A stretch of DNA of 32,000 nucleotides from Leptothoe kymatousa TAU-MAC 1615 (GCF_018739865.1 NZ_JADOER010000001.1:61899-93898); one strand, 5' to 3'; shown: positions 3,434 to 24,276, counted from the stretch's first letter. Translations and numbers: made by a program. The notes: a model not told the origin generated them from the letters alone.

Positions 3434-4897
3434 ATGGCAACTGCATTATCTCCATCTGTATTTGTAGGTAAATCAATTAAATTTGGTACTGACGGCTGGC
3501 GCGGCATGATCGCAGCCGACTTTACCTTTGAGCGAGTGGATTTGGTCGCTGCCCTGTCCGCTAAAGTTTTAGAAGAATGTTACGGCAGCAATGGCAGCCG
3601 CACGGTAATTGTTGGTTACGACCGCCGATTCTTGTCTCCTGAATTTGCTAGTCACGCCGCTGAAGCCGTTGCCCAGGCTGGTTACGACGTACTACTGTCT
3701 GAGTGTTTTGCCCCCACCCCTGCATTTAGTTGGGCCGCCCATGAGAAGGGTGCCCTTGGCGCCATTGTGATTACGGCTAGCCATAACCCGGCTGCCTATT
3801 CTGGTCTGAAAGTTAAAGGCGCATTTGGGGGGTCTGTGCCACCGGATGTGACGAAAAAAGTTGAAGCCCTATTGCCCCAGGGTAAGCCGGTGGCTGATAC
3901 ACCAGGCACCATCACTGCTTTTGATCCCTGGCCCAGTTACTGCCAAGCATTGCAGAGCATGGTCGACATTGAGGCGATTCGCGGCGCTATTGCCAACGGC
4001 GAACTAACCGTATTTGCCGATGTGATGCATGGTTCAGCGGCAGGCGGCTTTGAGAAGATTTTGGGCATGCCCATTAACGAAATCAACGGTGACGCCGATC
4101 CCCTATTCGAAGGCGGTGCCCCCGAACCCTTGCCCCGATATATTCCTAAGCTCTACAAAGCGATTAAAGATCGTTACCAGGCCGGTGCCGATGGCCTGAC
4201 GGTGGGCATCATTTTTGATGGGGATAGCGATCGCGTTGCTGGCATGGATGGCCAGGGCGAATTCCTAAGTTCTCAAGTATTGATCCCAATTTTGATCGAT
4301 CACCTCAAAGCCAAACGTGGATTTGACGGCGAAGTGATTAAAACGATCAGCGGCTCTAACCTGATGCAAAAGGTGGCTGAGCTCCATGGTTTATCGGTCC
4401 ACGAAACCCCCATCGGCTATAAGTACATTGCCGATCGCATGCTAGAGGCCAAGGTGTTAATTGGTGGTGAAGAGTCCGGTGGTATTGGCTATGGCCACCA
4501 TATTCCTGAGCGCGATGCGTTGCTCTCGGCCCTTTACTTGCTAGAAGCCGTAGTCAAGAGTGGCAAAGACTTTGGCCAGTTGAATCAGTTTTTGCGCCAG
4601 CAAACTGGATTTACCGGTGCCTACGACCGGATCGATTTGCCCCTAGCCAATATGGATGTGCGGGCCAAGCTGTTGGATCAGCTACAAAATGCCACACCCA
4701 CTGAAGTGGCGGGTAAGACGGTCAGTGATGTTCTTTCCATCGATGGCTATAAGTTCTCCCTGGCGGATGGTAGCTGGTTGCTAATTCGCTTTAGTGGAAC
4801 TGAGCCCGTACTACGTCTTTATTCCGAGGCAGCCACCATTGAAGAAGTGCATAAGCACCTCAATTGGGCTAAGGATTGGGCTAGTTCTGTAGCTTAG
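3434..4897 (+). CDS. Alpha-D-phosphohexomutase (phosphoglucomutase/phosphomannomutase family)
   Basis: All four family motifs are present: active-site Ser loop 'TASHNPAAYSGLKV', Mg loop 'FDGDSDRV', sugar loop 'GGEESGG' and phosphate loop 'RFSGTEPVLRLY'. Confidence 0.93.
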   Translation: MATALSPSVFVGKSIKFGTDGWRGMIAADFTFERVDLVAALSAKVLEECYGSNGSRTVIVGYDRRFLSPEFASHAAEAVAQAGYDVLLSECFAPTPAFSWAAHEKGALGAIVITASHNPAAYSGLKVKGAFGGSVPPDVTKKVEALLPQGKPVADTPGTITAFDPWPSYCQALQSMVDIEAIRGAIANGELTVFADVMHGSAAGGFEKILGMPINEINGDADPLFEGGAPEPLPRYIPKLYKAIKDRYQAGADGLTVGIIFDGDSDRVAGMDGQGEFLSSQVLIPILIDHLKAKRGFDGEVIKTISGSNLMQKVAELHGLSVHETPIGYKYIADRMLEAKVLIGGEESGGIGYGHHIPERDALLSALYLLEAVVKSGKDFGQLNQFLRQQTGFTGAYDRIDLPLANMDVRAKLLDQLQNATPTEVAGKTVSDVLSIDGYKFSLADGSWLLIRFSGTEPVLRLYSEAATIEEVHKHLNWAKDWASSVA

Positions 4898-4990
4898 GAT
4901 GTTCAGAAACTACTTCATGGTTTAATCTGGGCTTTTTAAGCCATGATTTCCAGGCACAGGACCATGATTTAAGTTTTAACAAGCCCTTGG
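4893..4990 (-). repeat. Dispersed ~100-bp repeat, copy A (inverted relative to copies B and C)
   Basis: The reverse complement 'ccaagggcttgttaaaacttaaatcatggtcctgtgcctggaaatcatggcttaaaaagcccagattaaaccatgaagtagtttctgaacatcctaag' aligns along its length with 10775-10878 and 20983-21087. Its end overlaps the TAG stop (4895-4897) of the phosphohexomutase gene. Confidence 0.8.
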
Positions 4991-9632: not shown

Positions 9633-9697
9633 AATGGCCTGATTAACTTAAAAAATGGGGACGATAGACCTTTCCGTATATTGCCCACCTAGAATAT

Positions 9698-10027
9698 TTA
9701 CCCACCAACAAAACTTTGCCAGAACAGAAAGGTACCCATGCCCACCAAGATGGTAATTAATAGGTTCTTTTTCCAGAGGCCCATCCCCAGTGCCACCAGC
9801 GCCCCCACCAGTCGAGGATTGGTGGGGGCAAGCCAGAGCCCGTCATCAGTGACTAAAACAGCGGGCACAACAATGGCCATCAGCACCGCAGGGGGCACAT
9901 AGTTGAGGGCCTGCAATAGGCGCGGGGGTAAGGTAATGCGATCGCTCATGGCCAGCACTGGGTAGCGGATCAAAAAGGTGACCAGGGTCATGCCCCCCAG
10001 CAGCAAGACTTCATCGGGATTAAACAT
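9698..10027 (-). CDS. azlD: AzlD-family branched-chain amino acid transport protein
   Basis: This is a small, very hydrophobic protein beginning '[26 protein letters not shown]'. It lies immediately downstream of azlC. Its ATG at 10027 overlaps the azlC stop (ATGTTTAA), which suggests translational coupling. Confidence 0.8.
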
Positions 10028-10739
10028 GGGTCTGCTCCAGATGGTTTTCCACCAGCATGCCGGTGACAATACCTGCGATCGCAGCCACCATTAACCCCAG
10101 CTGATGGGGCAGGCCTCTGGCCACCACGGCCCCTATCCCAGAAACAACCACCGTCGCCACCATCGGCCGACTAGAGAGATAGGGCACCACCATGCCAATA
10201 AACGTCGCCACCATGGCAAAGTCCAAACCCCAGCCCGCCGCATTCGGCATCGTCTGCCCCACCGTCAGACCAATCAGCGTACACAGCTGCCAGCTGGTAT
10301 ACATTGCCAACGCCGAGCCCAGCTGAAACCAATGCTTATGGCGAGACAAATCCCCCTGGCGATAGCGCTGGATCGCCACCATAAAATTCTCATCGGTCAG
10401 CCAAAAGCCCAGCGGCAATTTCCACCCCTGGTTTAAGTGCTTAATATAGGGCACCAAACTGACCGCATATAGCAAGTGGCGTAGATTGACCACCCAGGTC
10501 GTCAGCACAATCATGCCCATGGGGGTGCCCGCCGCCAGTAGCCCCAGGGCAATAAACTGAGAAGACCCCGCAAACACAATCACCGACATGCCCATGGCCC
10601 CCGCAAAAGAGAGACCGCTAGACTGGGCCAGGGTGCCAAAAATGATACCAAACGGAATCGCCCCAAAAATCAAAGGGACTGTTTGGCGGGCACCGGCCCA
10701 AAACTCACCCCAGGGGGTCGCATTGGAGACCGTGGTCAT
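10020..10739 (-). CDS. azlC: AzlC-family branched-chain amino acid exporter subunit
   Basis: This is a polytopic membrane protein with AzlC-like segments '[10 protein letters not shown]' and '[14 protein letters not shown]'. It is paired with azlD in the usual order. Confidence 0.82.
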
Positions 10740-10774
10740 AAAAAATACCAGGTAGATAAAAGGACCCCTCTAGC

Positions 10775-10878
10775 TTAAGGGCTTGTTAAAAATTAAAATC
10801 ATGGTCTTGTTCCTTCAATTCATGGCTTAACCAGCCTGTTCGCCCTAAACCGTGGGTAGTTTTTTGACAGCTCCCAAG
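10775..10878 (+). repeat. Dispersed ~105-bp repeat, copy B
   Basis: The sequence 'ttaagggcttgttaaaaattaaaatcatggtcttgttccttcaattcatggcttaaccagcctgttcgccctaaaccgtgggtagttttttgacagctcccaag' aligns with copy C in the same orientation, roughly three-quarters identical by eye. It also aligns with the reverse complement of copy A. It contains an internal inverted repeat, ggcttgttaa ... ttaaccagcc. Confidence 0.8.
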
Positions 10879-11162
10879 GGAACCCCACGGCAGCCATCCT
10901 GGGCAAGTTCTGTCACCGCTTTAGGGCATCCACTGTTGTTGTTCAACGCGCGCCCTAGCAACAAGCCCATAGCGTAATATTTGTAACGAAGGGTACTTTT
11001 TCATTAAAGCCACCGCCCCGAGGACTAAACAAACAGGTTAAATGGGCTCCTATGGGTTAAAACTTTACCCAAGAACTCGTGTGATTTAGTTATTAGGGCT
11101 GTAATCATGCGTAGCTTTCGGTAAAACACCCCATATCGATTGTTTGTGCATCGTTAGCCCCA

Positions 11163-12446
11163 ATGAAACAAGTTTTCACCAACAATACGGCAGTACCCAT
11201 TTCGCGGTTTGCCCCCACCAGTGTTAGTTCCAACCTTAACGTTGCCAATATTCCTGGATCGTTACAGCGCATTACGGTCACCCTCAACCTGGTGCACACC
11301 TTTACCGAAGATCTAAGCATCTCTCTATTAGCCCCCAATGGCTCGTCTATTCTATTAGTCGGTAATGAAGGCGGCAGTGGCGACAACTTTTTCGACACCA
11401 CCTTCGACGACGAAGCAGGGGTGCCCATCACCCAGGGCAGAGCGCCTTTTCAAGGTACATTTCGGCCAGAACAGCCCCTGGCCACCTTGCTCAGCAGTGA
11501 CCCCAACGGCACCTGGTCTTTACAGATTCAAGACCAGGCCTTTTTCGATGGCGGCGTGCTCAATCGCTGGTCCCTAGAGCTAGTTTTTGATAGCCCGGTG
11601 CCCGAGCCCGAGCCCACGCCAACTCCCACGCCAACTCCCACGCCCACGCCCACCCCGACGCCCACGCCTGCTCCAGTATCGCAGTTCACCATCGAAATCC
11701 GCTTCCTAGGTGGTCTCACCGCATCTCAGCGGGCCGTATTTGAAACCGCCGCCGCCCGTTGGCAAGAGATTATTATTGGCGATCTACCCACTACAACCAT
11801 CGACGGTGAGACCATCGATGATGTGCGGATCGAAGCGCGGGGCCTTTCCATCGATGGTCCCAACGGTGTGTTGGGGCGGGCAGGTCCCACCCGGTTGCGC
11901 AGTGGTTCGTTGTTGCCTGCCACCGGCGTGATGGAGTTCGACATTGGTGACCTAGCCCGACTAGAGGCCGAGGGGGGCCTGTTGGATGTCATTATCCACG
12001 AGATGGGCCATGTGCTAGGCATTGGCACCATCTGGCAAACCCAGAACTTGTTGGTGGGGGCAGGCACCGCCAACCCGCAATATGTGGGCCAAAATGGTAT
12101 GCGAGAGTTTTCTACCCTGATTGCGGCCCAAGGGATGACACCAATCCCCGTGGCCAATACCGGTGGCCAGGGCACCCGCGATGGCCATTGGCGCGAAGCT
12201 GTTTTTGGCAATGAGCTAATGACCGGCTTCTTAAACCGGGGGCCAAATCCCCTGAGTCGTTTGACCGTAGGTTCCTTAGAAGATTTGGGCTATGCGGTGA
12301 ACTATACGGCGGCAGATCCCTATGGGCTACCGTCGTCGCTAATGTTAGCGGTGATGGGCGTTAACACCGCTGGGGACTACGGCCATCGTCAGTGTCGCAT
12401 GTGCGATGCGGGCATATTGGGGAATCACTTTTTCCCTCAGGTGTAG
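11163..12446 (+). CDS. Zinc metalloprotease, leishmanolysin (M8)-like catalytic domain preceded by an N-terminal P-domain and a (Thr-Pro)n linker
   Basis: The N-terminal ~140 aa ('ITVTLNLVHTFTEDLSISLLAPNGSSILL ... GTWSLQIQD ... WSLELVF') fit the proprotein-convertase P-domain pattern. The linker is 'PEPEPTPTPTPTPTPTPTPTPAP'. The zinc site is 'VIIHEMGHVLG', with a further His 63 residues after the first in 'RDGHWREAVFGNELMTG', which is like the leishmanolysin family signature. There is no N-terminal hydrophobic signal segment. Confidence 0.8.
   Translation: MKQVFTNNTAVPISRFAPTSVSSNLNVANIPGSLQRITVTLNLVHTFTEDLSISLLAPNGSSILLVGNEGGSGDNFFDTTFDDEAGVPITQGRAPFQGTFRPEQPLATLLSSDPNGTWSLQIQDQAFFDGGVLNRWSLELVFDSPVPEPEPTPTPTPTPTPTPTPTPTPAPVSQFTIEIRFLGGLTASQRAVFETAAARWQEIIIGDLPTTTIDGETIDDVRIEARGLSIDGPNGVLGRAGPTRLRSGSLLPATGVMEFDIGDLARLEAEGGLLDVIIHEMGHVLGIGTIWQTQNLLVGAGTANPQYVGQNGMREFSTLIAAQGMTPIPVANTGGQGTRDGHWREAVFGNELMTGFLNRGPNPLSRLTVGSLEDLGYAVNYTAADPYGLPSSLMLAVMGVNTAGDYGHRQCRMCDAGILGNHFFPQV
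11601..11675 (+). repeat. Coding low-complexity (Pro-Glu)2(Thr-Pro)n tract
   Basis: The sequence is 'cccgagcccgagcccacgccaactcccacgccaactcccacgcccacgcccaccccgacgcccacgcctgctcca'. It includes a perfect 12-nt duplication (cccacgccaact x2). Confidence 0.9.
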
Positions 12447-12775
12447 GCCTGCGGGGAGTTGTGTAAGACTCTTAGGAGAGTTTGATGAGCACTCTCTTCT
12501 CTCAGCATATAATGGAGATTGACAACAAGTCTCCCCTCCTGGGAGGGACTGGGGTGGGTTATCAAGAAGCTTTTTCCTATCGGGGATCGGTTACTTGCGT
12601 TGGCGGTTAACCCACTCCGCCTGCGGCACCTCTCCCGAGAGGGGATGGCCTCCTACCACTATTATGTGCCTGTAACAAATATATTCGTGTCTAAATCCTC
12701 AAATTTGTATGTATAACCCCTGACCTAATCGAATACACAAGCTATAGTAAGAGCGAATTATCCTACGCTCAGTCA

Positions 12776-13855
12776 ATGCCTAAAATCCTGATTCTTGGGG
12801 CGAATCCTAACGGTACTACACGACTACGCTTAGATACAGAAGTCCGAGATATCAGCGATGGGTTAGAACGAGCCAAGCGGCGTGATGAGTTTCAGATTGC
12901 CCAGCGGTGGGCCGTGCGACCCCGCGACCTGCAGCGGGCCATGCTGGATGAACAGCCCCAAATCGTACATTTCTCTGGCCATGGGGAAGGGGAAACGGGG
13001 CTATATTTTGAGGATGAAGTTGGCAATGCGCAGCTGGTGACAGGGGACGCGTTGGCTGGGCTGTTTAAGTTATTTAAGAGCCAGCTACAGTGCGTGGTGC
13101 TAAATGGCTGCTATTCCGAAGTGCAGGCCGAAGCGATTTCGGCCCATATTCCCTATGTTATCGGCATGCGGGATGGGGTAAAGGATACGGCAGCCATTGA
13201 GTTTGCGGTTGGTTTCTATGACGCCCTAGGCACTGGGCAGTCGGTGGAGTTTGCCTTTGAGTTTGGCAAAGCGGCCATGGCCCTAGGCGGAGTGGGCGAC
13301 GAAGATTTGCCTGTGTTGCTCCAGTCGGAAACAGGCTCTGCTAGTGGTGGGTCGCCTGCAGCACCTGCCCCCTCGACCCCGTCAAAGCCGGTGGATCCCA
13401 ATCAGCCCTTGAACGTGTTTATTTCCTATTCCCATCGGGATGAAGACCTCAAGGAAGAGCTGGAGGTGCATCTGTCCACCCTGAAGCGACAAAAGAAAAT
13501 TAAACCCTGGCAGGATCGGTCCATTGAGGCCGGAACAGAATGGGACGATGAAATTAAAACCGCCCTGGAAAATGCCCAGATCATCCTGATGCTGGTAACA
13601 CCCCGGTTTATGGCCTCGGACTACATCAACGACATTGAGCTAGCCCATGCCATGAAACGCCACAATGCCGGCACCGCACGGGTGATTCCCATTATCCTCA
13701 AACCGTCGGATGTCAAAGATACGCCATTGAGTAACCTCCAGGCATTGCCCAAGGATGCCAAGCCAGTCACCCGCTGGGATGACCAGGATGAAGCCTTTTT
13801 GGATGTGGTCAAGGGCATTCGTCGGGTGGTAGATTCCCTCACTAAAAACCCTTAG
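12776..13855 (+). CDS. Two-domain effector protein: N-terminal compact caspase/CHAT-like domain + C-terminal TIR domain
   Basis: Residues 1-180 carry 'IVHFSGHG' (His65/His69) and 'VVLNGCYS' (Cys112), the His...Cys order of caspase-fold CHAT domains. Residues 181-210 are a Pro/Ser/Ala linker. Residues 211-345 show the TIR pattern: 'VFISYSHRD', 'WQDRSIEAGTEWDDEI' and 'IILMLVTPRFMASDYINDIELAHA', with candidate catalytic Glu288. Confidence 0.82.
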   Translation: MPKILILGANPNGTTRLRLDTEVRDISDGLERAKRRDEFQIAQRWAVRPRDLQRAMLDEQPQIVHFSGHGEGETGLYFEDEVGNAQLVTGDALAGLFKLFKSQLQCVVLNGCYSEVQAEAISAHIPYVIGMRDGVKDTAAIEFAVGFYDALGTGQSVEFAFEFGKAAMALGGVGDEDLPVLLQSETGSASGGSPAAPAPSTPSKPVDPNQPLNVFISYSHRDEDLKEELEVHLSTLKRQKKIKPWQDRSIEAGTEWDDEIKTALENAQIILMLVTPRFMASDYINDIELAHAMKRHNAGTARVIPIILKPSDVKDTPLSNLQALPKDAKPVTRWDDQDEAFLDVVKGIRRVVDSLTKNP

Positions 13856-13941
13856 CCGCCTCTTCGACTCCGGAGGATGCCCCTGCGGAGAGGCGAGATA
13901 CGGTATCAAAATCCCCAATTCCAGAGCAAACTCTGGGGTAT

Positions 13942-16020
13942 TTGTCCCCTAGCGTGCCGCGACTGCCACCCAAATTTTTACCAAGGTCAGAAGATTTAGG
14001 CGTGCTCAAAACGACAATCTTAGGGTCTAGTCAGCCGCCGGTGGCGGTCACCGGCACCCGACGGGGGCTTAGCATTCAGGGCATGGGGGGCATTGGCAAG
14101 TCGGTGTTGGCGGCGGCCCTTGCCCGGGATAGTGCGGTGCGTCAGGCATTTGCCGATGGGGTGTATTGGGTGTCCCTAGGCCAGGAGCCCAATGTGCTGT
14201 CGTTGCAGACGGAATTAGCACGGGAATTGGGTGACAAAACACCGGACTTTAGTGATGTGTCGGGGGGTAAAAAGTTTTTGACCGAGCTGCTGGCACCGCA
14301 GCGTTGTTTTGTGGTGTTGGATGATATTTGGGATGAACAACATCTGCGGGCATTTGATGTATTGGGGGACCAGGGCCAGATGCTGGTCACCACCCGCGAT
14401 AGTAGCTTGGTGACGGGCATTGGTGCGGTGGAGCACTCGTTGAATTTATTGTCGCCTGACCAGGCCAGGGTGTTGTTGGCGAGGTGGACCGGCTGTGGGG
14501 TAACGGAGCTGCCAACCGAGGCGGATAAGATTGCCAGGGAATGTGGCTATTTGCCCCTGGCGCTGGCCATGGCGGGGGCCATGCTGAAGAAAAGTCGTCG
14601 TTGGGAGTCGGTGTTGCAGCGGCTGCAGCGGGCAGACCTGGATAAGATTCGGCAACAGTTCCCGGACTATGACTATCCAGACCTGCTGAAGATGCTGCAG
14701 GTGAGTGTGGATGCTTTGGAGCCAGAGCTGCAGGAGAGATATTTAGACTTTGCGGTATTTCCAGAGGATGCGCGCATACCGGAGGCGGTATTGCAGACGC
14801 TGTGGGCACCTGTGGGCCTGGATGAGCTGGATGTGGTGGATATTTTGGATGACCTGGTGGCCAAGTCGTTGTTGCGACGGGACGATCAGGAGAATTTGTT
14901 TCTCCATGATTTGCAGTATGACTACATTGGTAAGCAGGTAAAGGATTTGCCTGGGCTGCATCAGCGGTGGTTGGATGCGTATAAAGAAAAATGTGGGCAG
15001 GGTTGGGCCAGCTGCCCCCAGGATGGCTACTTTTTTGGTCAGCTGACGCGGCATTTAAAAGAGGCGGGGCAGGTGGATCAGCTGCGCAGTTTGTTGTTTG
15101 ACTATGACTGGCTGCGGGCACAGCTAACGGCCAATGGCATCAATGGTTTGCTGGCAGATTATGACTGGCTAACGGATGACAAACTGTTGCAGCTGTTGCA
15201 GAGCACATTGCGGCTATCGGCCCATGTGTTGGCCACTAAACCACAACAGCTAAACCAGAGGCTCTGGGGCCACCTGAGGGATAGGGAACAACCAGAATTT
15301 AGCACGTTGTTAACCGAGGGGGCCGCGCAACAACCATCACTGTGGCTGCAACCCCAGCAAGCTAACCTGACGGCCCCCGATGGGGCATTGTTGCGTACCT
15401 TTGAGGGCCATAGCGGCGAGGTCATGTCCGTGGCGCTGAGTGAGGATGGCCGTCATGCGCTGTCAGGGTCATACGACAAGACGATGAAACTGTGGGATGT
15501 GACGACGGGAGAGGCGTTGCGCACCTTTGAGGGCCATAGCGGCGGGGTCAGGTCCGTGGCGCTGAGTGAGGATGGCCGTCATGCGCTGTCAGGGTCAGAA
15601 GACAAGACGATGAAACTGTGGGATGTGACGACGGGAGAGGCGTTGCGCACCTTTGAGGGCCATAGCGGCTGGGTCAGGTCCGTGGCGCTGAGTGAGGATG
15701 GCCGTCATGCGCTGTCAGGGTCATCCGACAATACGATGAAACTGTGGGATGTGACGACGGGAGAGGCGTTGCGCACCTTTGAGGGCCATAGCGGCTGGGT
15801 CGGGTCCGTGGCGCTGAGTGAGGATGGCCGTCATGCGCTGTCAGGGTCATCCGACAATACGATAAAACTGTGGGATCTGACCACGGACAACTGTTTAGCC
15901 ACCTTCTGTGGCGACCATTCATTCTATGCCTGTGACCTATCTGCCGATGGCGTCACCATTGTTGCGGGCGACCAAGCAGGCACCGTCCATTTCTTTTCTG
16001 TTATCACACCAGAGCCTTAG
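13942..16020 (+). CDS. STAND NTPase of the NB-ARC / Apaf-1 (AP-ATPase) type with C-terminal WD40 repeats and no N-terminal effector domain
   Basis: NB-ARC motifs are Walker A 'GMGGIGKS', Walker B 'CFVVLDDIWD', 'LVTTRD', 'GYLPLALAMAG' and the MHD-equivalent 'LFLHDL'. A helical region 'LLFDYDWLRAQL...LLADYDWL' resembles Apaf-1 HD2. Four near-identical WD40 units plus one degenerate unit follow. The start is uncertain: TTG 13942 or GTG 13954. The first ATG (14083) lies inside the Walker A motif. Confidence 0.85.
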   Translation: MSPSVPRLPPKFLPRSEDLGVLKTTILGSSQPPVAVTGTRRGLSIQGMGGIGKSVLAAALARDSAVRQAFADGVYWVSLGQEPNVLSLQTELARELGDKTPDFSDVSGGKKFLTELLAPQRCFVVLDDIWDEQHLRAFDVLGDQGQMLVTTRDSSLVTGIGAVEHSLNLLSPDQARVLLARWTGCGVTELPTEADKIARECGYLPLALAMAGAMLKKSRRWESVLQRLQRADLDKIRQQFPDYDYPDLLKMLQVSVDALEPELQERYLDFAVFPEDARIPEAVLQTLWAPVGLDELDVVDILDDLVAKSLLRRDDQENLFLHDLQYDYIGKQVKDLPGLHQRWLDAYKEKCGQGWASCPQDGYFFGQLTRHLKEAGQVDQLRSLLFDYDWLRAQLTANGINGLLADYDWLTDDKLLQLLQSTLRLSAHVLATKPQQLNQRLWGHLRDREQPEFSTLLTEGAAQQPSLWLQPQQANLTAPDGALLRTFEGHSGEVMSVALSEDGRHALSGSYDKTMKLWDVTTGEALRTFEGHSGGVRSVALSEDGRHALSGSEDKTMKLWDVTTGEALRTFEGHSGWVRSVALSEDGRHALSGSSDNTMKLWDVTTGEALRTFEGHSGWVGSVALSEDGRHALSGSSDNTIKLWDLTTDNCLATFCGDHSFYACDLSADGVTIVAGDQAGTVHFFSVITPEP
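15391..15894 (+). repeat. Four tandem 126-bp (42-codon) near-identical WD40-coding units
   Basis: Units start at 15391, 15517, 15643 and 15769. Units 1-3 differ from their neighbour at only 5 of 126 nt. Each encodes 'LRTFEGHSGxVxSVALSEDGRHALSGSxDxTMKLWDVTTGEA'. Confidence 0.97.
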
Positions 16021-16894
16021 CTGCCGACATATAAGCAAAGCTCCCCACTCCCCTACATCAAAAAATCTCTTGCCAACTGCACGACCTTTCCCCTTCAAAC
16101 TAACGGATCGCCTTGGCTCTTATCCAATTCTTTACCCAACCTTAAACGACAGTTTCATAAAAGCGCTCGTAACCAAAGACATTTTTTGATTTAAACATTA
16201 AAATAACAATAATTGTGTTGATATGTTAACTCGTTGTGGAGCTTGCTACAGGCCGGTTTGCACATGACACCCCAAAAAATATGCTTGGGTGAAAAGCGCA
16301 GGGAGAGCACGCCAACCCATAAAGCCTAGGAAAAGTCCCATATACATTACGTAAAGACATTGTATTTATACGTATTTGCTGATTTGCAGCACCAAGCCAT
16401 CTGAAAAAGTCTTATGTCCCATTTTTTTTCGGATTCCATCATCCCCTGGATAAGAATCAGTAACGCCCCCGGTCTTTACTTATCTTTTTGCAAGCCCCTG
16501 TCCTCAGGCGTATGCACAACAATAAAATCCCAACAGGATTCTGTTATGCCGCTTCTGCCTTAGGCAGGCATAAGTTAGAGAGGGCGGCTAAATCTCTTTT
16601 TTTTAATGGTTCCCAAATAGCCTAGGACAAGGATTCCCTTCGCAAGGCTGCCGTGTATACACATCAAAGGGGGATTTAGGGGGCCAGGGAGGGGGCTGGA
16701 TCACTTGCGCTAACGATCGAAGCCCCCTCCGTTGAGCTCCTGACGTAGGTTGGGTAGAACTCCGTGAAACCCAACACCCTAGGCTAGCAACAACAACTCT
16801 CCTAGGCACGCGAAAAATAACGCTCTACCCATAGTTCAACAACAGTTAATTCCTTACCCATAACACCCGTCTTTTTATTCATACGATCCTCCAT

Positions 16895-19800
16895 ATGCTG
16901 ACCTCTACTCCTATCGTTGATGTCACAACCCAACCAACATCGGTAGCCCTTCCAAACCAAACAACAACCCAACATACCGTTATCCTCGATTCACAAATTG
17001 AGGACCTAAACCTACTGCTGGATGGTTTACGAGCAGATGTCACAGCCCATGTGCTCACAGCCCATGAGGATGGATTACAGCAAATCACTGCGTTTCTAAC
17101 GCAACATCCCACACAGCACCTAACCCTCCTGGCCCATGGCTTCCCCGGTGGTATGCGCCTGGGGGCAACCACCGTAGACATTAACCACTTAGACACTCAC
17201 ACTCCGCAGCTGCAGCAGTGGTTTGCCCCCACCGCCCCGGCAAAACTAACTCTAATGGCTTGTAATGTGGCCCAAGGGGATGCGGGGCAGGCGTTTATTC
17301 AACAACTTGCGACCGTTACCGCCGCTGATGTTACGGCCAGCGTCAATGTTTTGGGTAATGGCGTTTGGCTACCCGCTGCTAAGGCGTTGTTTACGCCGGC
17401 AACCCTGGCGGCCTACCGTGGCACCCTGCAATGGTCAACTGTGGGTGCCGGGGCCATTGCCCCCCAGATTGACAACGACTTTGACATTGAAATAGACAGC
17501 CAGGGTACGCCCTATATTATTTTCCAGGATGATGCCAATGGCGTGACGGTGAAACGGTTCGATGGCCTCAATTGGGTGGATGTGGGGGTGCCCGGTTTTC
17601 CGGAGGGCAATGCTAGCTTTGTCGGCCTAGAATTTGGCCTGAATGATACCCCCTATGTGGTCTTTAAGGATGATGCCAATAACAGCCGGGCCACGGTGAT
17701 GCAGTTTAATGGCACCGACTGGGCCTATGTGGGTGATCCTGGCTTTTCGCCGGGAGGGTTTAAGGACATTAACATGAAGTTCTACGGTGATGCGCCCTAT
17801 GTGGTGTTCACCGATAGAACCCAAAATTCCCGGGCCACGGTGATGGTCTTTGATGGCCTCAGTTGGGAAACGGTGGGCAACCCTGGCTTTTCCACTGGGG
17901 CGGTGGCCGCCTCTGATATCAACATTGATGGCAACGGTGTGCCCTATGTGGCCTATGTGTCTGGGGAAGAGGGCTTCGAACAGGTCTCTGTGCAGCGATT
18001 TATCAATGGCCAGTGGAGCTTTGTTGGCGCGGAAGGATTTTCGGTGGGGGCGGAGGCTGCCAGACCGGATATTGAGTTTGATAATAACAATGTGCCCTAC
18101 CTTGTTTACCGGGCTCGGGGCAACGGCGAAGGCAATAAGGCCATTGTGCAATCGTTTAATGGCACCGACTGGATCAAAGTGGGCAGCAATGATGCGTCCA
18201 TTGCCGGTGGTTTCCACCCCGATCTGGAGTTTGACCAGAACAATGTTCTCAATCTGGCGATTGTGGACCAGGCTCTGAAAGATAAGGTCTCGGTGCGCAT
18301 CCTGAATCCAGATAATACCTGGGGCTATTTGGATGATAGTGGTTTCTCGTTGGGGCCAACAAACTTCCCAGACCTGGAGTTTGATAGCAACAACCTGCCC
18401 TATGTGCTCTATCGTGAGACGTTTGACGCCAATGGGGATGTTGCATCCAGCGCCGTGGTAAAACGTTTGGGCGAACCCGCTACGGTGGTGGATAATATCG
18501 CCCCTGTGTTGGCCAGTGTGAGTCGCAAAACTCCCCTTGGGGCGACGGTCCCTAGTGGCACTGTGGTGTTTGAGGCGCTCTTTAGTGAGGCGGTGGCCAA
18601 TGTTGGCCCAGAAGATTTTGTGATTAATGGGTTGCCCACGGCCACCATTGATGCGGTAACGACGACAGACAGCACTCGCTATGACATTGCGGTGACGGCC
18701 ACTGGCGCAGCCGGTAGCGTTTTTGGGCTAGATTTAGCTACGGTGTCTGACATTGTGGATATTGCGGGCAATGGGTTAACCCTGGCAGAGCCCACTGTGG
18801 ATGAGGCATATACCCTTGCGGGACCTTTGGTGGCCCCTGTGCTATCCAGCATCCGTCGCAAAACGCCCGTTGAGGCTGCGGTTACTGGTAATAGCACCCT
18901 GGTATTTGAGGCCACCTTTAGTGAGGGGGTGGTCAACGTTGGCCCAGAAGATTTTGTGATTAATGGGTTGCCCACGGCCACCATTGCCGGGGTAACGGCT
19001 GTGGACGCCACTCGCTATGACATTGCGGTGACGGCCAATGTGGGGGATGCCGCCAGTGGCACGGTTGGTTTAGATTTGGCCGCAGTTTCGGATATTGTCA
19101 ACGCTGCGGGGACGGCCTTAACGCTGGTCGAGCCGACGGTGGATCAGGCGTATACCGTTACGGCCCCAGGGACTGTGGCCCCAGCGCCTCCGGCCACCCC
19201 TGTGGTTGAGCCTCCTACCCCCCCCGTTGTATTGCCTGAGGTGGTAACGCCCGTTGCACCTGGTGCGCTGACGATTTTACCCAGTGTGAATCGGGTGGAA
19301 GTGACATCTCTAGGCACCGATAATACGCTGCAGCTAACATTTCGAGGGGGGCAGGTGACGAATGTCCCCGACATTCTGGTCTTTGATGAGGCGGATGCGC
19401 TGATTGGCCAGTTTTCCTTGCTGGATTCTGATGACCTAGCTGCGGGGTATACGTCTCGGTTTACCATCAGTAGCAATGCCATTAGTGTTGGTCAGAGTTT
19501 GCAGTTTGCGATTCAGGATGGGGAGACGACCTGGTTTGCAGACCCCGCAAGGCTATCCGACTCTGAAGCTCTGTTGAGGTTTGGCAATGGGTTTAGCTTT
19601 AATGTGGGATTGGCGACCGAAACGGGTAGTACGAACCTATTGGTAAATGATGCGGAGTCTATTGACCTGACGGGGCAGGCGTCTGGCACCATCAGTTTCT
19701 CGGTGTATCGAGAGGCGGCGATGGATAATACGGTGGATTTGTATACAACTGATTTTGCCGATGGTGGCATTGTTGATGCGTTCACTGGGCGCACCTTGAT

Positions 19801-20107
19801 GCCCGGTGATGCTGGCTATAGGGCAGCGGCCATTTCTAATCGGTTAAATCTCAACCTATCGGGCACCAACGGTCAGGTTAATACGGTGGATGCGGCGGTT
19901 ACCGGCGGCATGCATCTCGGCATTTTTGTGGTGATCGATGGCATAGACCCTGCCGTTGGCGAGGTTGTGTTTAGCCACAGTGGAGCCAATGCCAATGGGG
20001 CGGACCACATTAAACACCTGGGCGACAATTCTTTTGGCATTGAAGATCAGGCTGGGTTGGGCGATAAAGACTTTGACGATATTGTTTTACAGTTTTCTGT
20101 TGCCTAG
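16895..20107 (+). CDS. Large multidomain protein: DUF4347-like N-terminus, seven ~50-aa propeller-like repeats, two Ig-like repeats, Pro-rich linker, DUF4114-like C-terminus
   Basis: The N-terminus 'VILDSQIEDL...LTLLAHGFPGGMRLG...LTLMACNVAQGDAGQAFIQQLA' has a DUF4347-like pattern. Seven repeats follow the form 'D(I/L)EFDxxxxPYVxY...xATVxxFNGTDWxxVGxPGFS' (aa ~190-528). Two ~112-aa repeats ('RKTP...VFEA.FSE.V.NVGPEDFVINGLPTATI...RYDIAVTA') share a 49-nt identical block. The C-terminal 'FGIEDQAGLGDKDFDDIVLQF' is DUF4114-like. There is no signal peptide. Confidence 0.8.
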   Translation: MLTSTPIVDVTTQPTSVALPNQTTTQHTVILDSQIEDLNLLLDGLRADVTAHVLTAHEDGLQQITAFLTQHPTQHLTLLAHGFPGGMRLGATTVDINHLDTHTPQLQQWFAPTAPAKLTLMACNVAQGDAGQAFIQQLATVTAADVTASVNVLGNGVWLPAAKALFTPATLAAYRGTLQWSTVGAGAIAPQIDNDFDIEIDSQGTPYIIFQDDANGVTVKRFDGLNWVDVGVPGFPEGNASFVGLEFGLNDTPYVVFKDDANNSRATVMQFNGTDWAYVGDPGFSPGGFKDINMKFYGDAPYVVFTDRTQNSRATVMVFDGLSWETVGNPGFSTGAVAASDINIDGNGVPYVAYVSGEEGFEQVSVQRFINGQWSFVGAEGFSVGAEAARPDIEFDNNNVPYLVYRARGNGEGNKAIVQSFNGTDWIKVGSNDASIAGGFHPDLEFDQNNVLNLAIVDQALKDKVSVRILNPDNTWGYLDDSGFSLGPTNFPDLEFDSNNLPYVLYRETFDANGDVASSAVVKRLGEPATVVDNIAPVLASVSRKTPLGATVPSGTVVFEALFSEAVANVGPEDFVINGLPTATIDAVTTTDSTRYDIAVTATGAAGSVFGLDLATVSDIVDIAGNGLTLAEPTVDEAYTLAGPLVAPVLSSIRRKTPVEAAVTGNSTLVFEATFSEGVVNVGPEDFVINGLPTATIAGVTAVDATRYDIAVTANVGDAASGTVGLDLAAVSDIVNAAGTALTLVEPTVDQAYTVTAPGTVAPAPPATPVVEPPTPPVVLPEVVTPVAPGALTILPSVNRVEVTSLGTDNTLQLTFRGGQVTNVPDILVFDEADALIGQFSLLDSDDLAAGYTSRFTISSNAISVGQSLQFAIQDGETTWFADPARLSDSEALLRFGNGFSFNVGLATETGSTNLLVNDAESIDLTGQASGTISFSVYREAAMDNTVDLYTTDFADGGIVDAFTGRTLMPGDAGYRAAAISNRLNLNLSGTNGQVNTVDAAVTGGMHLGIFVVIDGIDPAVGEVVFSHSGANANGADHIKHLGDNSFGIEDQAGLGDKDFDDIVLQFSVA

Positions 20108-20164
20108 GGGCCCCCTGAATCGATAAATATTCTATAGATAAGAACAAACGCAATTAAGCACTTG

Positions 20165-20210
20165 CACGTCGAGCAATGGACCATCCATTGCTCGACGTGT
20201 TTTAAAGTTT
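20165..20210 (+). terminator. Strong rho-independent terminator after the 1070-aa gene
   Basis: A perfect 15-bp stem CACGTCGAGCAATGG / CCATTGCTCGACGTG closes a 5-nt loop and is followed by TTTTAAAGTTTT. Confidence 0.8.
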
Positions 20211-20871
20211 TGGTGATACGGATTGGGTGGTGCTTAAACGTGGGGCTACCGAGTAAAAATACCCATGGCTTTGAGACCCTGGTAGGACGACTTCATTGCC
20301 TAACTAATGTTGATAGGTCTTTATACGCAGGGGCCAAAAGCCTTGCACTACAAAGAGTCATGAAACTGTAACAAAAAAGTTAACTATTCCGGAGAAGTCT
20401 GGAAGTGTACGAAGAGTAGAACGAGCAGAAAGTCTTATAGACAAGACTGCATCGAATAGCATTTATCACCTTGGGGTCAGATTATCTGACTACCTGAAAA
20501 TCGATCACTTCAGACATCAGCCCCCTGTCTGCCCGATAAATTCACCTCTGATCTAAAGATACCCTTTTCTGGGTCTTGCAAAATGCTTTTATAAGTCTTC
20601 CTGGGAGAAAACTTCTGGGGTATATAATCCAGCAGCTTTGTCTATGCTTTCTGCCGACTGTGTTGTCGTAGCTCGGTTTATAGCAACTTGTCATGAAACA
20701 ACAACGATTTTGGCACGCTAAGCGTCGTTGCCATCTCTATCTAGCCGTTTCCAATTCCCCCGGTATGTTTATGTTTATGGGTAAACCTTGGTCCTCCAAA
20801 GCATTGCAGGCCCTTGGTTTTGTTCAAGAACCTAACGAACAGAAACTTCAACAACCTAAGCTTGCTTTTGG

Positions 20872-20900
20872 CGATCCCTCTCGATTCCAGGGATCGTTTT
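20872..20900 (+). terminator. Terminator-like hairpin with no annotated gene upstream (possible 3' end of an unannotated transcript)
   Basis: An 8-bp stem CGATCCCT/AGGGATCG closes a 9-nt loop and is followed by TTTTG. It lies in a gene-less region. Confidence 0.35.
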
Positions 20901-20982
20901 GCAAGACCCAGGGGAAGGGATCTTCTCCTACCTGGGGTGCCCGAGGTGGCTCCGGTGGTAAGGTCACTCGATCGCCTAAAAG

Positions 20983-21087
20983 TTAAGGGTTTGTTAAAAA
21001 ATAAAAACATGGCTTTGTTCCTTGAAACCTTGGCGTAACAAGCCTTTCGGGACTAAACCGTGAAGCAGTTGCTTAACAACTCCTAAG
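20983..21087 (+). repeat. Dispersed ~105-bp repeat, copy C
   Basis: The sequence 'ttaagggtttgttaaaaaataaaaacatggctttgttccttgaaaccttggcgtaacaagcctttcgggactaaaccgtgaagcagttgcttaacaactcctaag' aligns with copy B in the same orientation. Confidence 0.8.
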
Positions 21088-21109
21088 TTAAGAGTTGCAA
21101 AGAGTGATG

Positions 21110-21144
21110 GTTAAGATCTGAGCTCTCTTCTGCCAGATCTTAAC
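21110..21144. other. Perfect 11-bp-stem hairpin in non-coding DNA
   Basis: GTTAAGATCTG - 13-nt loop - CAGATCTTAAC. No T-tract follows on either strand. Confidence 0.6.
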
Positions 21145-21237
21145 TATGCTCGCTAGGCGAAGCAGCGTGGCTATTGGTCAGGCTCGGGCAAAGGGGCTTT
21201 AGTCCCTAGTTTTGTCGAACAGACCATATGGCTTAAA

Positions 21238-21277
21238 AGCCCCCTGTCGTTACCCAATTGGGTAACGACAGGGGGCT
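21238..21277. other. 40-nt perfect palindrome (18-bp arms around AATT) about 230 bp upstream of por
   Basis: The sequence is AGCCCCCTGTCGTTACCC-AATT-GGGTAACGACAGGGGGCT. On the minus strand it is followed by TTTTAAGCC. Confidence 0.7.
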
Positions 21278-21487
21278 AATTAATGGCTGGCTGGAATCTG
21301 TCAAAGCCCCAGTTGTTCGGTTTGGGGTTTGGGCTCTGGAGCTTCAGCAATGGACGGATGTAATATTGCGTTACTTAACCCCGCAATCCATAACATTGCC
21401 CCACATTGCTTAAGGTTTATTTCGGATAACCGTTACGGTTCAACCGTGTGAGAATCTAGTGTATTCACGGATTCATACCAATTTTAG

Positions 21488-22468
<981 letters not shown>

Positions 22469-22500
22469 GGCTTGAACGCCTCATAGGGTATACGGTCGGT

Positions 22501-22534
22501 CCCGTAGGGGCATTGCACGCAATGCCCCTACGGG
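22501..22534 (+). terminator. G/C-rich hairpin downstream of por (probable terminator; typical cyanobacterial 'GTAGGGGC...GCCCCTAC' hairpin)
   Basis: CCCGTAGGGGCATTGC-AC-GCAATGCCCCTACGGG gives a ~14-bp effective stem. It is followed by the weak T-tract TGGTTT. Confidence 0.5.
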
Positions 22535-22647
22535 TGGTTTCCATCTATAAACAGATTCCAAAAAATCAACGTTTCTGTAGATAACTTCGGTACTATGGCC
22601 TGCGGACCACTGTGGTCTAGTACCCACATTTATTGCAGGTTATCTCC

Positions 22648-23520
22648 ATGGCGCAAGCAGACATCGGTATTATCGGCGGCAGCGGTCTCTATAGGATGGA
22701 TGCCCTCACTGATATTGAAGAGGTCACCGTTGAAACACCGTTTGGTGAGCCTTCCGATGCGTTTATTTGCGGCAAGCTAGATGGTACTCCGGTGGTCTTT
22801 TTGGCGCGTCATGGTCGGGGGCATCGTTTGTTGCCGACGGAGCTGCCGTTTCAGGCCAACATTTACGGCATGAAGAGCCTCGGGGTGAAGTATTTGATTT
22901 CGGCATCGGCGGTGGGCTCTCTCAAGGAAGAGGTAAAGCCAGTGGACATGGTGATCCCCGATCAGTTTATTGACCGGACTAAAAATCGGACAGCCACGTT
23001 TTTTGGTGAAGGCATTGTGGCCCATATTGCCTTTGGCGATCCGGTGTGTAAAAACTTGGCGACAGTTTTGGGCGATGCCGTGGAAAGCTTGAACCTGGAG
23101 GGTGTAACCCTACACCGGGGGGGCACCTATGTGTGTATGGAAGGGCCGGCATTTTCCACTAAGGCGGAGTCGCATTTGTATCGTAGCTGGGGGGCCACGG
23201 TCATTGGGATGACTAATTTGACTGAGGCAAAACTGGCGCGCGAAGCGGAAATTGCCTATGCCACCTTGGCCATGGCCACTGATTATGATTGTTGGCACCC
23301 GGACCACGATAGTGTGACGGTGGAGATGGTGATTGGGAATTTACAAAAGAATGCGGTTAATGCCCAGCGGGTGATTCAAGATGTGGTTTGTCGTTTGACG
23401 GAGAACCCCCCTGAATCTGAGGCCCATTCGGCGTTGAAATATGCGGTGTTTACCCCTCTGGATACGGCGCCTGTGGCAACGAAAAATAAGCTTAAGCTTA
23501 TTTTGGAAAAGTATATGTAG
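22648..23520 (+). CDS. mtnP: S-methyl-5'-thioadenosine phosphorylase
   Basis: Supporting motifs are '[10 protein letters not shown]', '[11 protein letters not shown]', '[11 protein letters not shown]', '[10 protein letters not shown]' and '[18 protein letters not shown]'. The ATG at 22648 is preferred to the TTG at 22633. Confidence 0.9.
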
Positions 23521-23521
23521 G

Positions 23522-24244: not shown

Positions 24245-24276
24245 GGTGGGGGAGGGGTTAGTGAAGGTGAGAAATA

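What the first reader, a model, noticed from the sequence alone, without database searches (positions are those of the whole stretch)
10775..21087. Candidate ~10-kb accessory island: HIP1-free stretch bracketed by two direct copies of a ~105-bp repeat
Seen in sequence:
- I found GCGATCGC at 779, 1070, 2838, 4227, 8492, 9938, 10075, 22284, 25687, 27093, 28218, 29665 and 31209.
- That is 13 copies in about 19.8 kb, roughly one per 1.5 kb, and none between 10083 and 22283 (12.2 kb). At the flanking density about 8 would be expected there.
- Inside this gap, same-orientation repeat copies B (10775-10878) and C (20983-21087) bracket four same-strand genes. These are the P-domain metalloprotease, CHAT-TIR, NB-ARC-WD40 and the DUF4347 giant protein. 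The interval also holds long gene-less spacers (16021-16894 and 20108-20982).

Established knowledge:
- HIP1 is a genome-wide over-represented palindrome in many cyanobacteria. Its local absence is compatible with foreign or recently acquired DNA.

Inference:
- The block may have been inserted as a unit, or may be excisable by recombination between the direct repeats.

Caveats:
- The counts were made by eye.
- The gap also covers azlC and part of por.
- I did not compute GC content or codon usage.
Basis: partly seen in the sequence, partly recalled or inferred. Interest (0 to 1): 0.62.

Follow-up and report, generated by a model that had tools for sequence, protein, structure and literature searches.

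The report
Old variable locus, not a mobile island
The proposed 10-kb "island" is not mobile or foreign DNA: the stretch without the cyanobacterial HIP1 motif is no longer than chance allows, the two "bracketing repeats" are unrelated copies of a 97-bp miniature transposon present about 79 times in the genome, and the genes between them have sat at this chromosomal site since the genus arose.

Summary
The raw observations are correct. The 13 HIP1 positions and the 12.2-kb gap are exact, and B and C are real direct repeats.

1. HIP1 gap. The genome has 10 HIP1-free gaps of at least 12 kb, against 8.8 expected from a Poisson model.
2. Synteny. The azlCD...por neighbourhood is conserved across the genus (Leptolyngbya sp. 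PCC 7375 / Adonisia). One member of another subclade carries all four genes in the same order. The CHAT-TIR tree matches the tree of the flanking genes.
3. Composition. GC, tetranucleotide content and codon usage are all ordinary.

B and C are two of about 79 copies of a 97-bp MITE with 3-bp TNA-type target duplications. They are only 77% identical to each other, and each is closer to dozens of other copies. Both are absent from the same sites in every relative examined. B sits on the junction of a lineage-specific deletion of an efflux-pump gene pair.

What is really there is an old, vertically inherited slot of variable content. It carries NLR-like (CHAT-TIR, NB-ARC-WD40) and secreted-protein genes and has been shaped by differential loss and cassette replacement. 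This is ordinary and of low interest. No closely similar case on other DNA was looked for in the scan's notes.

The parts
10083..22283 (.). HIP1-free interval (12.2 kb)
   Evidence: The positions are exact. Genome-wide there are 10 gaps of at least 12 kb against 8.8 expected. HIP1 sites present in DUF4347 and sORF orthologs are replaced here by mostly synonymous or one-base variants, for example GCCATTGC at 17453 and TCGATCGC at 20968.
10776..10877 (+). MITE copy B. The element is 10779-10874, with flanking triplets TAA (10776-10778) and CAA (10875-10877) that do not match.
   Evidence: Family alignment and target-duplication analysis. B is absent from all relatives' loci. Homology to sister genome G004 upstream of azlC ends at 10777, at B's flanking TAA triplet and two bases before the element starts. 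B therefore sits on the junction of the MFP-RND deletion.
20984..21086 (+). MITE copy C. The element is 20987-21083, with a perfect TAA/TAA target duplication. The left TAA is the stop codon of the 97-aa ORF.
   Evidence: Alignment with 8 relatives, and with L053, shows an empty site '...AGT TAA' with no element.
4894..4989 (-). MITE copy A (element 4897-4986), a third copy in inverted orientation that abuts the phosphoglucomutase stop codon
9698..10739 (-). azlD and azlC, the conserved left anchor of the locus
   Evidence: Pfam AzlC at 8e-42 and AzlD at 1e-23. Syntenic in all relatives that cover this region.
11163..12446 (+). P-domain plus leishmanolysin-like (M8) metalloprotease
   Evidence: Pfam. 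Orthologs lie at the same position in G009, G015, G017 and G006, with a remnant in G003. Codon usage is at the 49th percentile.
12776..13855 (+). CHAT(caspase-like)-TIR protein
   Evidence: Pfam CHAT and TIR_2. PADLOC ThsB-like TIR at 3e-50. The His/Cys dyad motifs HFSGHG and LNGC align to the CHAT structure 8tl0. The gene tree is congruent with the flank tree.
13942..16020 (+). NB-ARC (Apaf-1-type STAND) WD40 protein
   Evidence: Pfam NB-ARC at 2e-31, APAF1_C and WD40. Orthologs follow CHAT-TIR in G009, G016, G006, G001, G007 and G012.
16895..20107 (+). 1070-aa DUF4347...DUF4114 protein
   Evidence: Pfam. Orthologs at the same position in G002, G010, G009, G011 and L053 carry 2-4 HIP1 sites each.
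20693..20986 (+). Conserved 97-aa ORF always linked to por. This is the true right anchor of the variable slot.
   Evidence: Intact at 77-90% amino-acid identity in every relative examined. Annotated as a hypothetical protein in NCBI MAGs.
21497..22468 (+). por (light-dependent protochlorophyllide reductase-type SDR), a core gene
   Evidence: Pfam adh_short. 91-93% amino-acid identity in all relatives.

Best explanation
The interval is a chromosomal slot of variable gene content that is native to the genus. It has been inherited vertically since the common ancestor of the sampled Leptolyngbya PCC 7375 / Adonisia genomes.

Anchors and ancestral content (inferred):
- The slot is anchored on the left by azlDC and an MFP-RND efflux pair.
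- It is anchored on the right by a conserved 97-aa gene plus por.
- The ancestral content was probably close to that of G009: protease, CHAT-TIR, NB-ARC-WD40 and DUF4347.

How the lineages diverged:
- Lineages differ through loss of individual genes. In some, a cassette was replaced by another STAND/TIR system.
- This genome kept all four genes but lost the MFP-RND pair.

The two signals that prompted the finding are incidental:
- The HIP1 gap is the ordinary tail of a near-random spacing distribution. It was produced by point-mutational turnover of HIP1 sites. The sites that orthologs carry are replaced here by mostly synonymous or one-base variants.
- Repeats B and C are two independent, lineage-specific insertions of a 97-bp non-autonomous transposon (MITE). 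The element targets TNA triplets and has about 79 copies.

Shown versus inferred:
- Shown: the statistics, the synteny, the congruent trees, the empty sites and the target duplications.
- Inferred: the ancestral gene set, that losses rather than gains explain the patchiness, and that MITE B took part in the MFP-RND deletion.
For: HIP1 statistics:
- 1768 sites with a mean spacing of 2301 bp. There are 10 gaps of at least 12 kb against 8.8 expected.

Composition:
- GC is 0.53 (89th percentile) and tetranucleotide distance is at the 82nd percentile of 10-kb windows.
- Codon-usage scores of the four genes fall at the 39th-74th percentile of 1470 long ORFs.
- Other HIP1-free gaps with a truly foreign look (GC 0.37-0.45, tetranucleotide distance 0.018-0.037) show what an alien island looks like in this genome.

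Synteny:
- The order azlDC-(MFP-RND)-cassette-sORF-por-PNP is colinear in G002, G010, G009, G004 and G015. It is also seen in G003 (as far as its contig reaches) and in G016 and G011, where it is split over two contigs.
- G009 has all four genes in the same order.

Phylogeny:
- The tree of por+azlC+azlD DNA gives {G000,G004} at 99/99 support, {G002,G010} and {G009,G011}.
- The CHAT-TIR tree gives {G000,G004,G001} at 100/99 and {G002,G010} at 100/98, placed in an unresolved group with G009, G011 and G031 at 88/96.

HIP1 turnover:
- DUF4347 orthologs hold 10 HIP1 sites in 10.8 kb. The whole cassette in relatives has 12 against 15.8 expected.
- At those aligned sites the window has GCCATTGC and similar variants.
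- The end of the sORF is a perfect HIP1 in L053 and G015 but TCGATCGC here.

Repeats:
- 79 copies with sharp 97-bp boundaries.
- In 36 of 54 copies the flanking triplets match, against 15.4 under shuffling, p<5e-5.
- B-C identity is at the 18th percentile.
- There are no copies in any orthologous locus.
- The family is abundant only in G000, G004, G008, G001 and G012.

Mobility genes:
- No mobility genes are found in the window.
Against: - The patchy distribution could also arise from lateral exchange between congeners, which trees with 11 taxa cannot exclude gene by gene. The protease is present here but absent in the two nearest relatives G004 and G001. NB-ARC is absent in G004.
- Across relatives, the protease, CHAT-TIR and NB-ARC orthologs together carry only 2 HIP1 sites in 22 kb, against 10.7 expected. 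These genes may therefore be intrinsically HIP1-poor. The core genes PNP (0 in 9.2 kb) and DUF3611 (0 in 5.3 kb) are equally poor, and orthologs are not independent samples.
- The sister genome G004 also has a roughly 12.2-kb HIP1-free stretch at this locus.
- The genome is a 75%-complete MAG, so the absence of MFP-RND elsewhere, and of an autonomous transposase, is not proven.
Confidence: 0.85

Rival explanations
1. A roughly 10-kb block of foreign or recently acquired DNA was inserted as a unit. It is bounded by direct repeats B and C that mark its ends, and it can be excised by recombination between them.
For: - There are no HIP1 sites in 12.2 kb.
- Two same-orientation repeat copies flank four same-strand genes.
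- The gene content is of a kind often found in accessory DNA, for example TIR and STAND domains.
Against: - The gap occurs at the chance rate.
- Composition and codon usage are native.
- The repeats are 2 of 79 MITE copies at 77% identity, with a longest identical run of 10 nt.
- Both MITEs are missing in all relatives, while the genes between them are present there in the same order.
- C lies outside the conserved sORF that belongs to the por side.
- No integrase or att-like tRNA is present.
- CHAT-TIR co-diverges with the flanks.
Confidence: 0.02
2. A recombination hot spot. The slot is a genus-wide 'defence-island' site where whole cassettes are repeatedly swapped between related strains. 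The swaps occur by homologous recombination in the conserved flanks (RND or CHAT-TIR on one side, sORF-por on the other). On this view part of the present content, for example the protease or NB-ARC-WD40/DUF4347, arrived laterally from a congener rather than by unbroken vertical descent.
For: - Different genomes hold alternative cassettes in the same slot. G004, and apparently G013 and G031, carry TIR-iSTAND + MoxR AAA + VWA + a 680-aa protein on the opposite strand.
- G015 and G003 carry the protease only, and G016, G006 and G007 lack DUF4347.
- The protease is present here but not in the nearest relatives G004 and G001.
- G006 has a co-divergent CHAT-TIR/NB-ARC pair at 62% and 57% identity, on a long branch.
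Against: - The CHAT-TIR tree is congruent with the flank tree for every well-supported clade.
- All patterns can be derived from a G009-like ancestor by losses alone.
- Transfer from a congener would be invisible to composition tests, so nothing positively demands it.
Confidence: 0.12

Closest known systems
Integrase-mediated genomic islands / integrative elements flanked by att direct repeats
   Same: A block of accessory-type genes lies between two same-orientation repeats, inside a stretch that lacks a genome-signature motif.
   Different: There is no integrase or recombinase and no tRNA target. The repeats are 77% identical and are members of a 79-copy family. Composition is native. No empty site exists in relatives. 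The genes are older than both repeat insertions.
Prokaryotic MITEs, for example Nezha of Nostocales cyanobacteria and Correia elements (reviewed in PMC10969869). The 3-bp TNA target duplication recalls the IS5 family (IS1031/ISL2-type groups) and eukaryotic PIF/Harbinger-Tourist elements, from my own knowledge.
   Same: The element is 97 bp and non-coding, with imperfect 11-nt terminal inverted repeats (GGGCTTGTTAA / GGAGCTGTTAA). It has 3-bp target duplications, tens of copies, lineage-specific expansion, and insertion polymorphism at orthologous sites.
   Different: No autonomous partner with the same ends was found in this incomplete genome. There is no Rfam family match. Assignment to a particular IS family is untested.
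Chromosomal 'defence islands' or variable hot spots between conserved core genes
   Same: The flanks are conserved and the interior is variable. The interior is enriched in TIR, caspase-like, STAND (NB-ARC, iSTAND) and MoxR-VWA genes, and alternative cassettes occupy one slot in different strains.
   Different: No defence function has been shown. One resident gene (CHAT-TIR) co-diverges with the flanks instead of turning over. The slot also holds a protease and a large DUF4347 protein with no defence annotation (no PADLOC hit).
HIP1 scarcity as a marker of xenologous genes (Delaye et al. 2011, PMC3025956)
   Different: That study describes the per-gene HIP1 distribution as apparently random. 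It accepts a gene as alien only when HIP1 scarcity is combined with unusual codon usage. Here codon usage is ordinary.

Membership tests
Mobile genomic island (integrative element) | Encodes an integrase, recombinase or other mobility gene | tested here: not met
   Pfam scans of 19 of the larger ORFs, including all four genes of the block, found none. The three ORFs at 28568-31901, at the far right of the window, were not scanned.
Mobile genomic island (integrative element) | Flanked by near-identical direct repeats (att sites) created by the integration, often at a tRNA gene | tested here: not met
   B and C are 76.7% identical, at the 18th percentile of family pairs, with a longest identical run of 10 nt. 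The only tRNA lies at 2197-2270, 8.5 kb away.
Mobile genomic island (integrative element) | Atypical base composition or codon usage | tested here: not met
   GC is at the 89th percentile, tetranucleotide distance at the 82nd, and codon usage at the 39th-74th.
Mobile genomic island (integrative element) | An empty site in relatives (flanks adjacent, one repeat copy) | tested here: not met
   No relative has azlCD or RND next to sORF/por. All carry part of the cassette and none carries the repeat.
MITE (non-autonomous DNA transposon) | Short, non-coding and multi-copy with sharp common boundaries | tested here: met
   The core is 97 bp (43 of 54 copies are exactly 97 bp). There are 79 copies, 67 of them full length.
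MITE (non-autonomous DNA transposon) | Terminal inverted repeats | tested here: met
   GGGCTTGTTAA at the left end against the reverse complement of the right end, GGAGCTGTTAA. They match at 8 of 11 positions ungapped, or 10 with one offset.
MITE (non-autonomous DNA transposon) | Target-site duplications that differ between copies | tested here: met
   The 3-bp flanks match in 36 of 54 copies against 15.4 under shuffling, p<5e-5. They include TAA, TTA, TAT, TGA and ATA.
MITE (non-autonomous DNA transposon) | Presence/absence polymorphism at orthologous sites | tested here: met
   Copy C has an empty site in 8 genus genomes and in L053. Copy B is absent in G004 and G009.
MITE (non-autonomous DNA transposon) | An autonomous IS with the same ends that encodes the transposase | tested here: inconclusive
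   No pair of ends 0.3-5 kb apart enclosing a transposase was found in G000. The genome is only 75% complete, and the relatives were not searched.
Composite transposon (two repeat copies mobilising the DNA between them) | The interior DNA is foreign to the site and the outer flanks are contiguous in relatives | tested here: not met
   The sequence just inside B (protease upstream region) and just inside C (sORF) is syntenic with the outside flanks in relatives.
Chromosomal defence or variable hot spot | Conserved flanking core genes with different gene sets between them in related genomes | tested here: met
   At least five architectures occur between RND and sORF-por across 14 genomes.
Chromosomal defence or variable hot spot | The content protects against phage or other invaders | not testable with these tools
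   There is domain-level similarity only: ThsB-like TIR at 3e-50, CHAT, NB-ARC, iSTAND and MoxR-VWA.

The most novel reading that the evidence does not exclude
The slot between RND/azlCD and the 97-aa gene/por may be a genus-wide immune-type hot spot. In it, a resident dual-effector gene (caspase-like CHAT + TIR) is inherited vertically. The neighbouring sensor cassette is interchangeable: NB-ARC-WD40 in some species, TIR-iSTAND + MoxR + VWA in others, and none in PCC 7375. MITE activity would sculpt the locus, as in the MFP-RND deletion at copy B. That would make it a natural experiment in modular NLR-like immunity in marine filamentous cyanobacteria.
Probability: 0.25. Interest if true: 0.5.

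Novelty: new member of a known kind. Interest (0 to 1): 0.15.

Why it matters
The result is mainly a caution. In HIP1-rich cyanobacteria, a 12-kb HIP1-free stretch is by itself no evidence of foreign DNA when the genome-wide density is about one site per 2.3 kb. A pair of short direct repeats is meaningless until the repeat's genome-wide copy number is known.

The positive by-products are modest:
- A probably undescribed 97-bp MITE family with a TNA target preference, expanded in one subclade of the PCC 7375 / Adonisia group.
- A conserved small gene upstream of por.
- A well-defined variable slot carrying NLR-like genes, which could serve for comparative work on cyanobacterial STAND/TIR systems.

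Tried and rejected
- Rfam scan of the window. Only one tRNA was found, and nothing matched the repeats or spacers.
- Search for an autonomous IS with the MITE ends. Only neighbouring MITE copies were found.
- Composite-transposon reading of B...C. It is rejected because the DNA just inside both copies is syntenic with the outside flanks in relatives.
- Idea that the cassette is HIP1-depleted across the whole genus.
  - It is not for the cassette as a whole: 12 sites against 15.8 expected.
  - It is nominally so for the protease, CHAT-TIR and NB-ARC genes: 2 against 10.7.
  - The core genes PNP and DUF3611 have zero sites too, and orthologs are not independent. I therefore treat this as gene-specific heterogeneity rather than a sign of foreignness.
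- Looking for the missing MFP-RND pair elsewhere in G000. Only paralogs at 24-27% identity were found.
- PADLOC on the protease, DUF4347 and sORF proteins gave no hits.

Full report
**Observation**

The two repeat copies are real: 80 nt at 80% identity, and about 103 nt at 77%. A third, inverted copy lies at about 4894-4989. Pfam confirms the gene content:
- azlD and azlC (minus strand)
- a P-domain/M8-like protease
- a CHAT-TIR protein
- an NB-ARC-WD40 protein
- a 1070-aa DUF4347...DUF4114 protein
- por, then a purine-nucleoside-phosphorylase-family gene

**Is the HIP1 gap more than chance?**

The window lies on contig C17 of a 4.07-Mb, 18-contig assembly that is 75% complete. The genome holds 1768 HIP1 sites at a mean spacing of 2301 bp. 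The flanks of the window, at one site per 1.5 kb, are richer than average. The gap is therefore expected to hold 5.3 sites, not 8.

Across the genome, 10 inter-site gaps are at least 12 kb, against 8.8 expected from a Poisson process. This gap is the tenth largest.

HIP1-free 10-kb windows are on average compositionally odd, with a tetranucleotide distance of 0.021 against 0.011. The long gaps fall into two classes:
- Clearly alien stretches, with GC of 0.37-0.45 and distance of 0.018-0.037.
- Normal stretches.

This gap, with GC of 0.528 and distance of 0.011, belongs to the normal class.

**Composition**

The 10.1-kb interval between the repeats has a GC of 0.53, at the 89th percentile of 10-kb windows. 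Its tetranucleotide distance is at the 82nd percentile. Codon-usage scores of the four genes fall at the 39th-74th percentile of 1470 long ORFs, similar to the flanking core genes.

Delaye et al. (PMC3025956) used HIP1 scarcity to find alien genes in S. elongatus. They describe the per-gene distribution as apparently random, and they required unusual codon usage as well. That second criterion is not met here.

**The repeats are MITE copies**

BLAST of B and C against the genome finds a dispersed family. With the consensus as query there are 79 copies, 67 of them full length.

An alignment of 57 full-length copies shows sharp common boundaries around a 97-bp core:
- The ends are GGGCTTGTTAA... 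and ...TTAACAGCTCC, which form imperfect terminal inverted repeats.
- The three bases on either side are identical in 36 of 54 copies, against 15.4 when the right flanks are shuffled (p<5e-5).
- These triplets vary between copies: TAA 20 times, TTA 10 times, and also TAT, TGA, ATA, AAA and TTT.

These are target-site duplications, so the element is a MITE with a TNA-like target.

B and C are not a special pair:
- Their identity of 76.7% is at the 18th percentile of all pairs.
- Each ranks the other about 40th of 56.
- Both are closer to the consensus (88% and 86%) than to each other.
- Their longest shared identical run is 10 nt.

MITE copies are clustered. 23 adjacent pairs lie within 10.3 kb, against 11.4 expected, and 11 of those are in the same orientation.

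The family is abundant only in G000, G004, G008, G001 and G012. It is absent or rare in the other genus genomes, including PCC 7375. No Rfam family matches it, and no autonomous partner was found in this incomplete genome.

**Synteny**

Organism names place the genus around Leptolyngbya sp. PCC 7375 (G002), Adonisia turfae CCMR0081 (G010) and Leptolyngbya sp. Heron Island J (G031).

A DNA search with window 7200-24300, followed by tblastn on fetched loci, shows the same neighbourhood throughout the genus. The common order is azlDC, MFP-RND, a variable cassette, the 97-aa ORF, por, PNP and DUF3611. The cassette differs between genomes:

| Genome(s) | Cassette content |
|---|---|
| G009 | protease, CHAT-TIR, NB-ARC-WD40, DUF4347 (the same four genes in the same order as here) |
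| G002, G010 | CHAT-TIR, DUF4347 |
| G016, G006 | CHAT-TIR, NB-ARC-WD40; G006 also keeps the protease 3' end at its contig start |
| G007 | NB-ARC-WD40; the contig begins inside this gene |
| G015 | protease only |
| G003 | a decayed remnant of the protease |
| G004 (G013 and G031 appear similar) | CHAT-TIR, plus an opposite-strand set of TIR-iSTAND, MoxR-type AAA, VWA and a 680-aa protein |

No relative has azlCD or RND adjacent to por. CHAT-TIR orthologs occur in 12 of 21 relatives and NB-ARC orthologs in 6-7 of 21. The content is therefore 'accessory' in the pangenome sense, but the locus is fixed.

**Vertical descent**

A tree of por+azlC+azlD DNA (2037 columns) gives {G000,G004} at 99/99 support, {G002,G010} at 100/100, {G009,G011} at 100/100 and {G015,G003} at 100/100.

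The CHAT-TIR protein tree gives {G000,G004,G001} at 100/99 and {G002,G010} at 100/98. The latter sits in an unresolved group with G009, G011 and G031 at 88/96.

The G000/G004/G001 grouping is echoed by the genome-wide MITE expansion. G000 and G009 lie on opposite sides of the midpoint-rooted flank tree yet share all four genes in order. The simplest history is therefore an ancestral four-gene cassette followed by differential loss. This step is an inference.

**HIP1 turnover inside the 'island'**

In relatives the DUF4347 orthologs are HIP1-rich, with 10 sites in 10.8 kb. The cassette as a whole is not depleted, with 12 sites against 15.8 expected.

At the aligned positions, this genome's gene has mostly synonymous or near variants. 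One example is GCC ATT GCC where G009 and G011 have GCG ATC GCA. The last codons of the 97-aa ORF are a perfect HIP1 in L053 and G015, but read TCGATCGC here at 20968. A single base difference would split the gap.

The protease, CHAT-TIR and NB-ARC orthologs are HIP1-poor across the genus, with 2 sites against 10.7 expected. The core genes PNP and DUF3611 have zero. HIP1 density is therefore strongly gene-specific. The sister genome G004 also shows a roughly 12.2-kb HIP1-free stretch at this locus.

**What the two MITE copies actually mark**

Copy C is inserted exactly at the TAA stop codon of the 97-aa ORF at 20693-20986. That TAA is the left target duplication, and a second TAA follows the element at 21084-21086. 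Eight genus genomes, and the closer relative L053 (P01_D01_bin.56, por DNA 85% identical), have the uninterrupted site '...AGT TAA'.

The ORF itself is intact at 77-90% amino-acid identity in every relative. It is annotated as a hypothetical protein in NCBI MAGs. It always accompanies por, whatever the cassette. C therefore lies on the core side of the true boundary of the variable region.

Copy B lies where all relatives, including the nearest (G004, G001), carry an MFP (465 aa) and RND (1056 aa, about 90% identical among relatives) efflux pair. That pair is missing here, and only paralogs at 24-27% identity exist elsewhere in the assembly.
- Homology to G004 upstream of azlC ends at 10777, at B's flanking TAA triplet and two bases before the element starts at 10779.
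- Homology to the RND-to-protease spacer of G009 and G015 resumes at about 10975.
- B's flanking triplets do not match (TAA/CAA).

This fits, but does not prove, a MITE-associated deletion of about 5 kb. If repeats removed anything here, it was the pump genes and not the 'island'.

**Function of the content (brief, domain-level only)**

- CHAT-TIR keeps the caspase-type His and Cys motifs (HFSGHG, LNGC), which align to a solved CHAT protein (8tl0). It also has a ThsB-like TIR domain with the conserved Glu region.
- NB-ARC-WD40 is an Apaf-1-type STAND NTPase.
- Together they resemble two-gene NLR-like conflict systems.
- The protease and the DUF4347 protein have no defence-family match.
- The CHAT-like N-terminal module recurs, fused to other domains, at four or more other loci of this genome.

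**Verdict**

The locus is an old, vertically inherited slot of variable content, decorated by two recent and independent MITE insertions. Interest is low. The by-products are the MITE family, the conserved small gene, the pump deletion and the alternative STAND/TIR cassettes. These are new members of known kinds.

**Limits**

- The genome is a 75%-complete MAG.
- The trees have only 11 taxa.

Noticed in passing
window 20693-20986 (+): A 97-aa ORF (MKQQRFWH...GKVTRSPKS) directly upstream of por is intact at 77-90% identity in every genus genome examined. It always travels with por. It has no Pfam or PADLOC match, and homologs seem confined to this lineage.
   Followed up: partly
window 10740-11162, compared with L012:4492-10070 and L015: The MFP + RND efflux pair that lies between azlC and the cassette in every relative (RND about 90% amino-acid identity) is missing here and from the rest of the assembly. 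MITE copy B sits exactly on the left breakpoint and has unmatched flanking triplets (TAA/CAA). This suggests a MITE-associated deletion of about 5 kb.
   Followed up: partly
window 4894-4989 (-): MITE copy A abuts the 3' end of the phosphoglucomutase gene. The TAG stop (4895-4897) spans the junction of the target triplet and the first base of the element. Like copy C, this fits a TAA/TTA target preference that often hits stop codons.
   Followed up: no
L014:4308-9935 (G004), also L026 (G013): In the sister genome, the slot between CHAT-TIR and the 97-aa ORF holds TIR-iSTAND, a MoxR-type AAA ATPase, a VWA protein and a 680-aa protein without Pfam match, all on the opposite strand. This looks like a MoxR-VWA ternary-type conflict system in place of NB-ARC-WD40/DUF4347.
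   Followed up: partly
G000 contigs C10:80792-99240, C14:151405-168973, C11:327317-344158, C6:124996-142714; whole contig C7: These HIP1-free stretches of 17-18 kb have GC of 0.37-0.45 and tetranucleotide distances 2-3 times the median. Contig C7 (34.7 kb, GC 0.458) has a single HIP1 site. These are much better candidates for foreign DNA, or for mis-binned contigs, than the stretch under study.
   Followed up: no
L016:11399-11807 (G003), between por and PNP: Five HIP1 sites are spaced exactly 102 bp apart, so a tandem repeat array carries HIP1. It lies inside an insertion of about 6 kb between por and PNP that G015 shares in part (there with a WD40 protein).
   Followed up: no
G000 C11:34424-34984, C4:648780-649391, C3:225979-226539, C6:42748-43701: The CHAT-like N-terminal module (residues 1-190 of CHAT-TIR) recurs at 39-56% identity in open frames of 584-1065 aa at other loci. 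This indicates domain shuffling of this effector module in the genus.
   Followed up: no
window 21087-21360: The roughly 270 bp between MITE C and the conserved por promoter-proximal block, including the perfect 40-nt palindrome at 21238-21277, has no counterpart in most relatives. It is a lineage-specific insertion next to the MITE.
   Followed up: no
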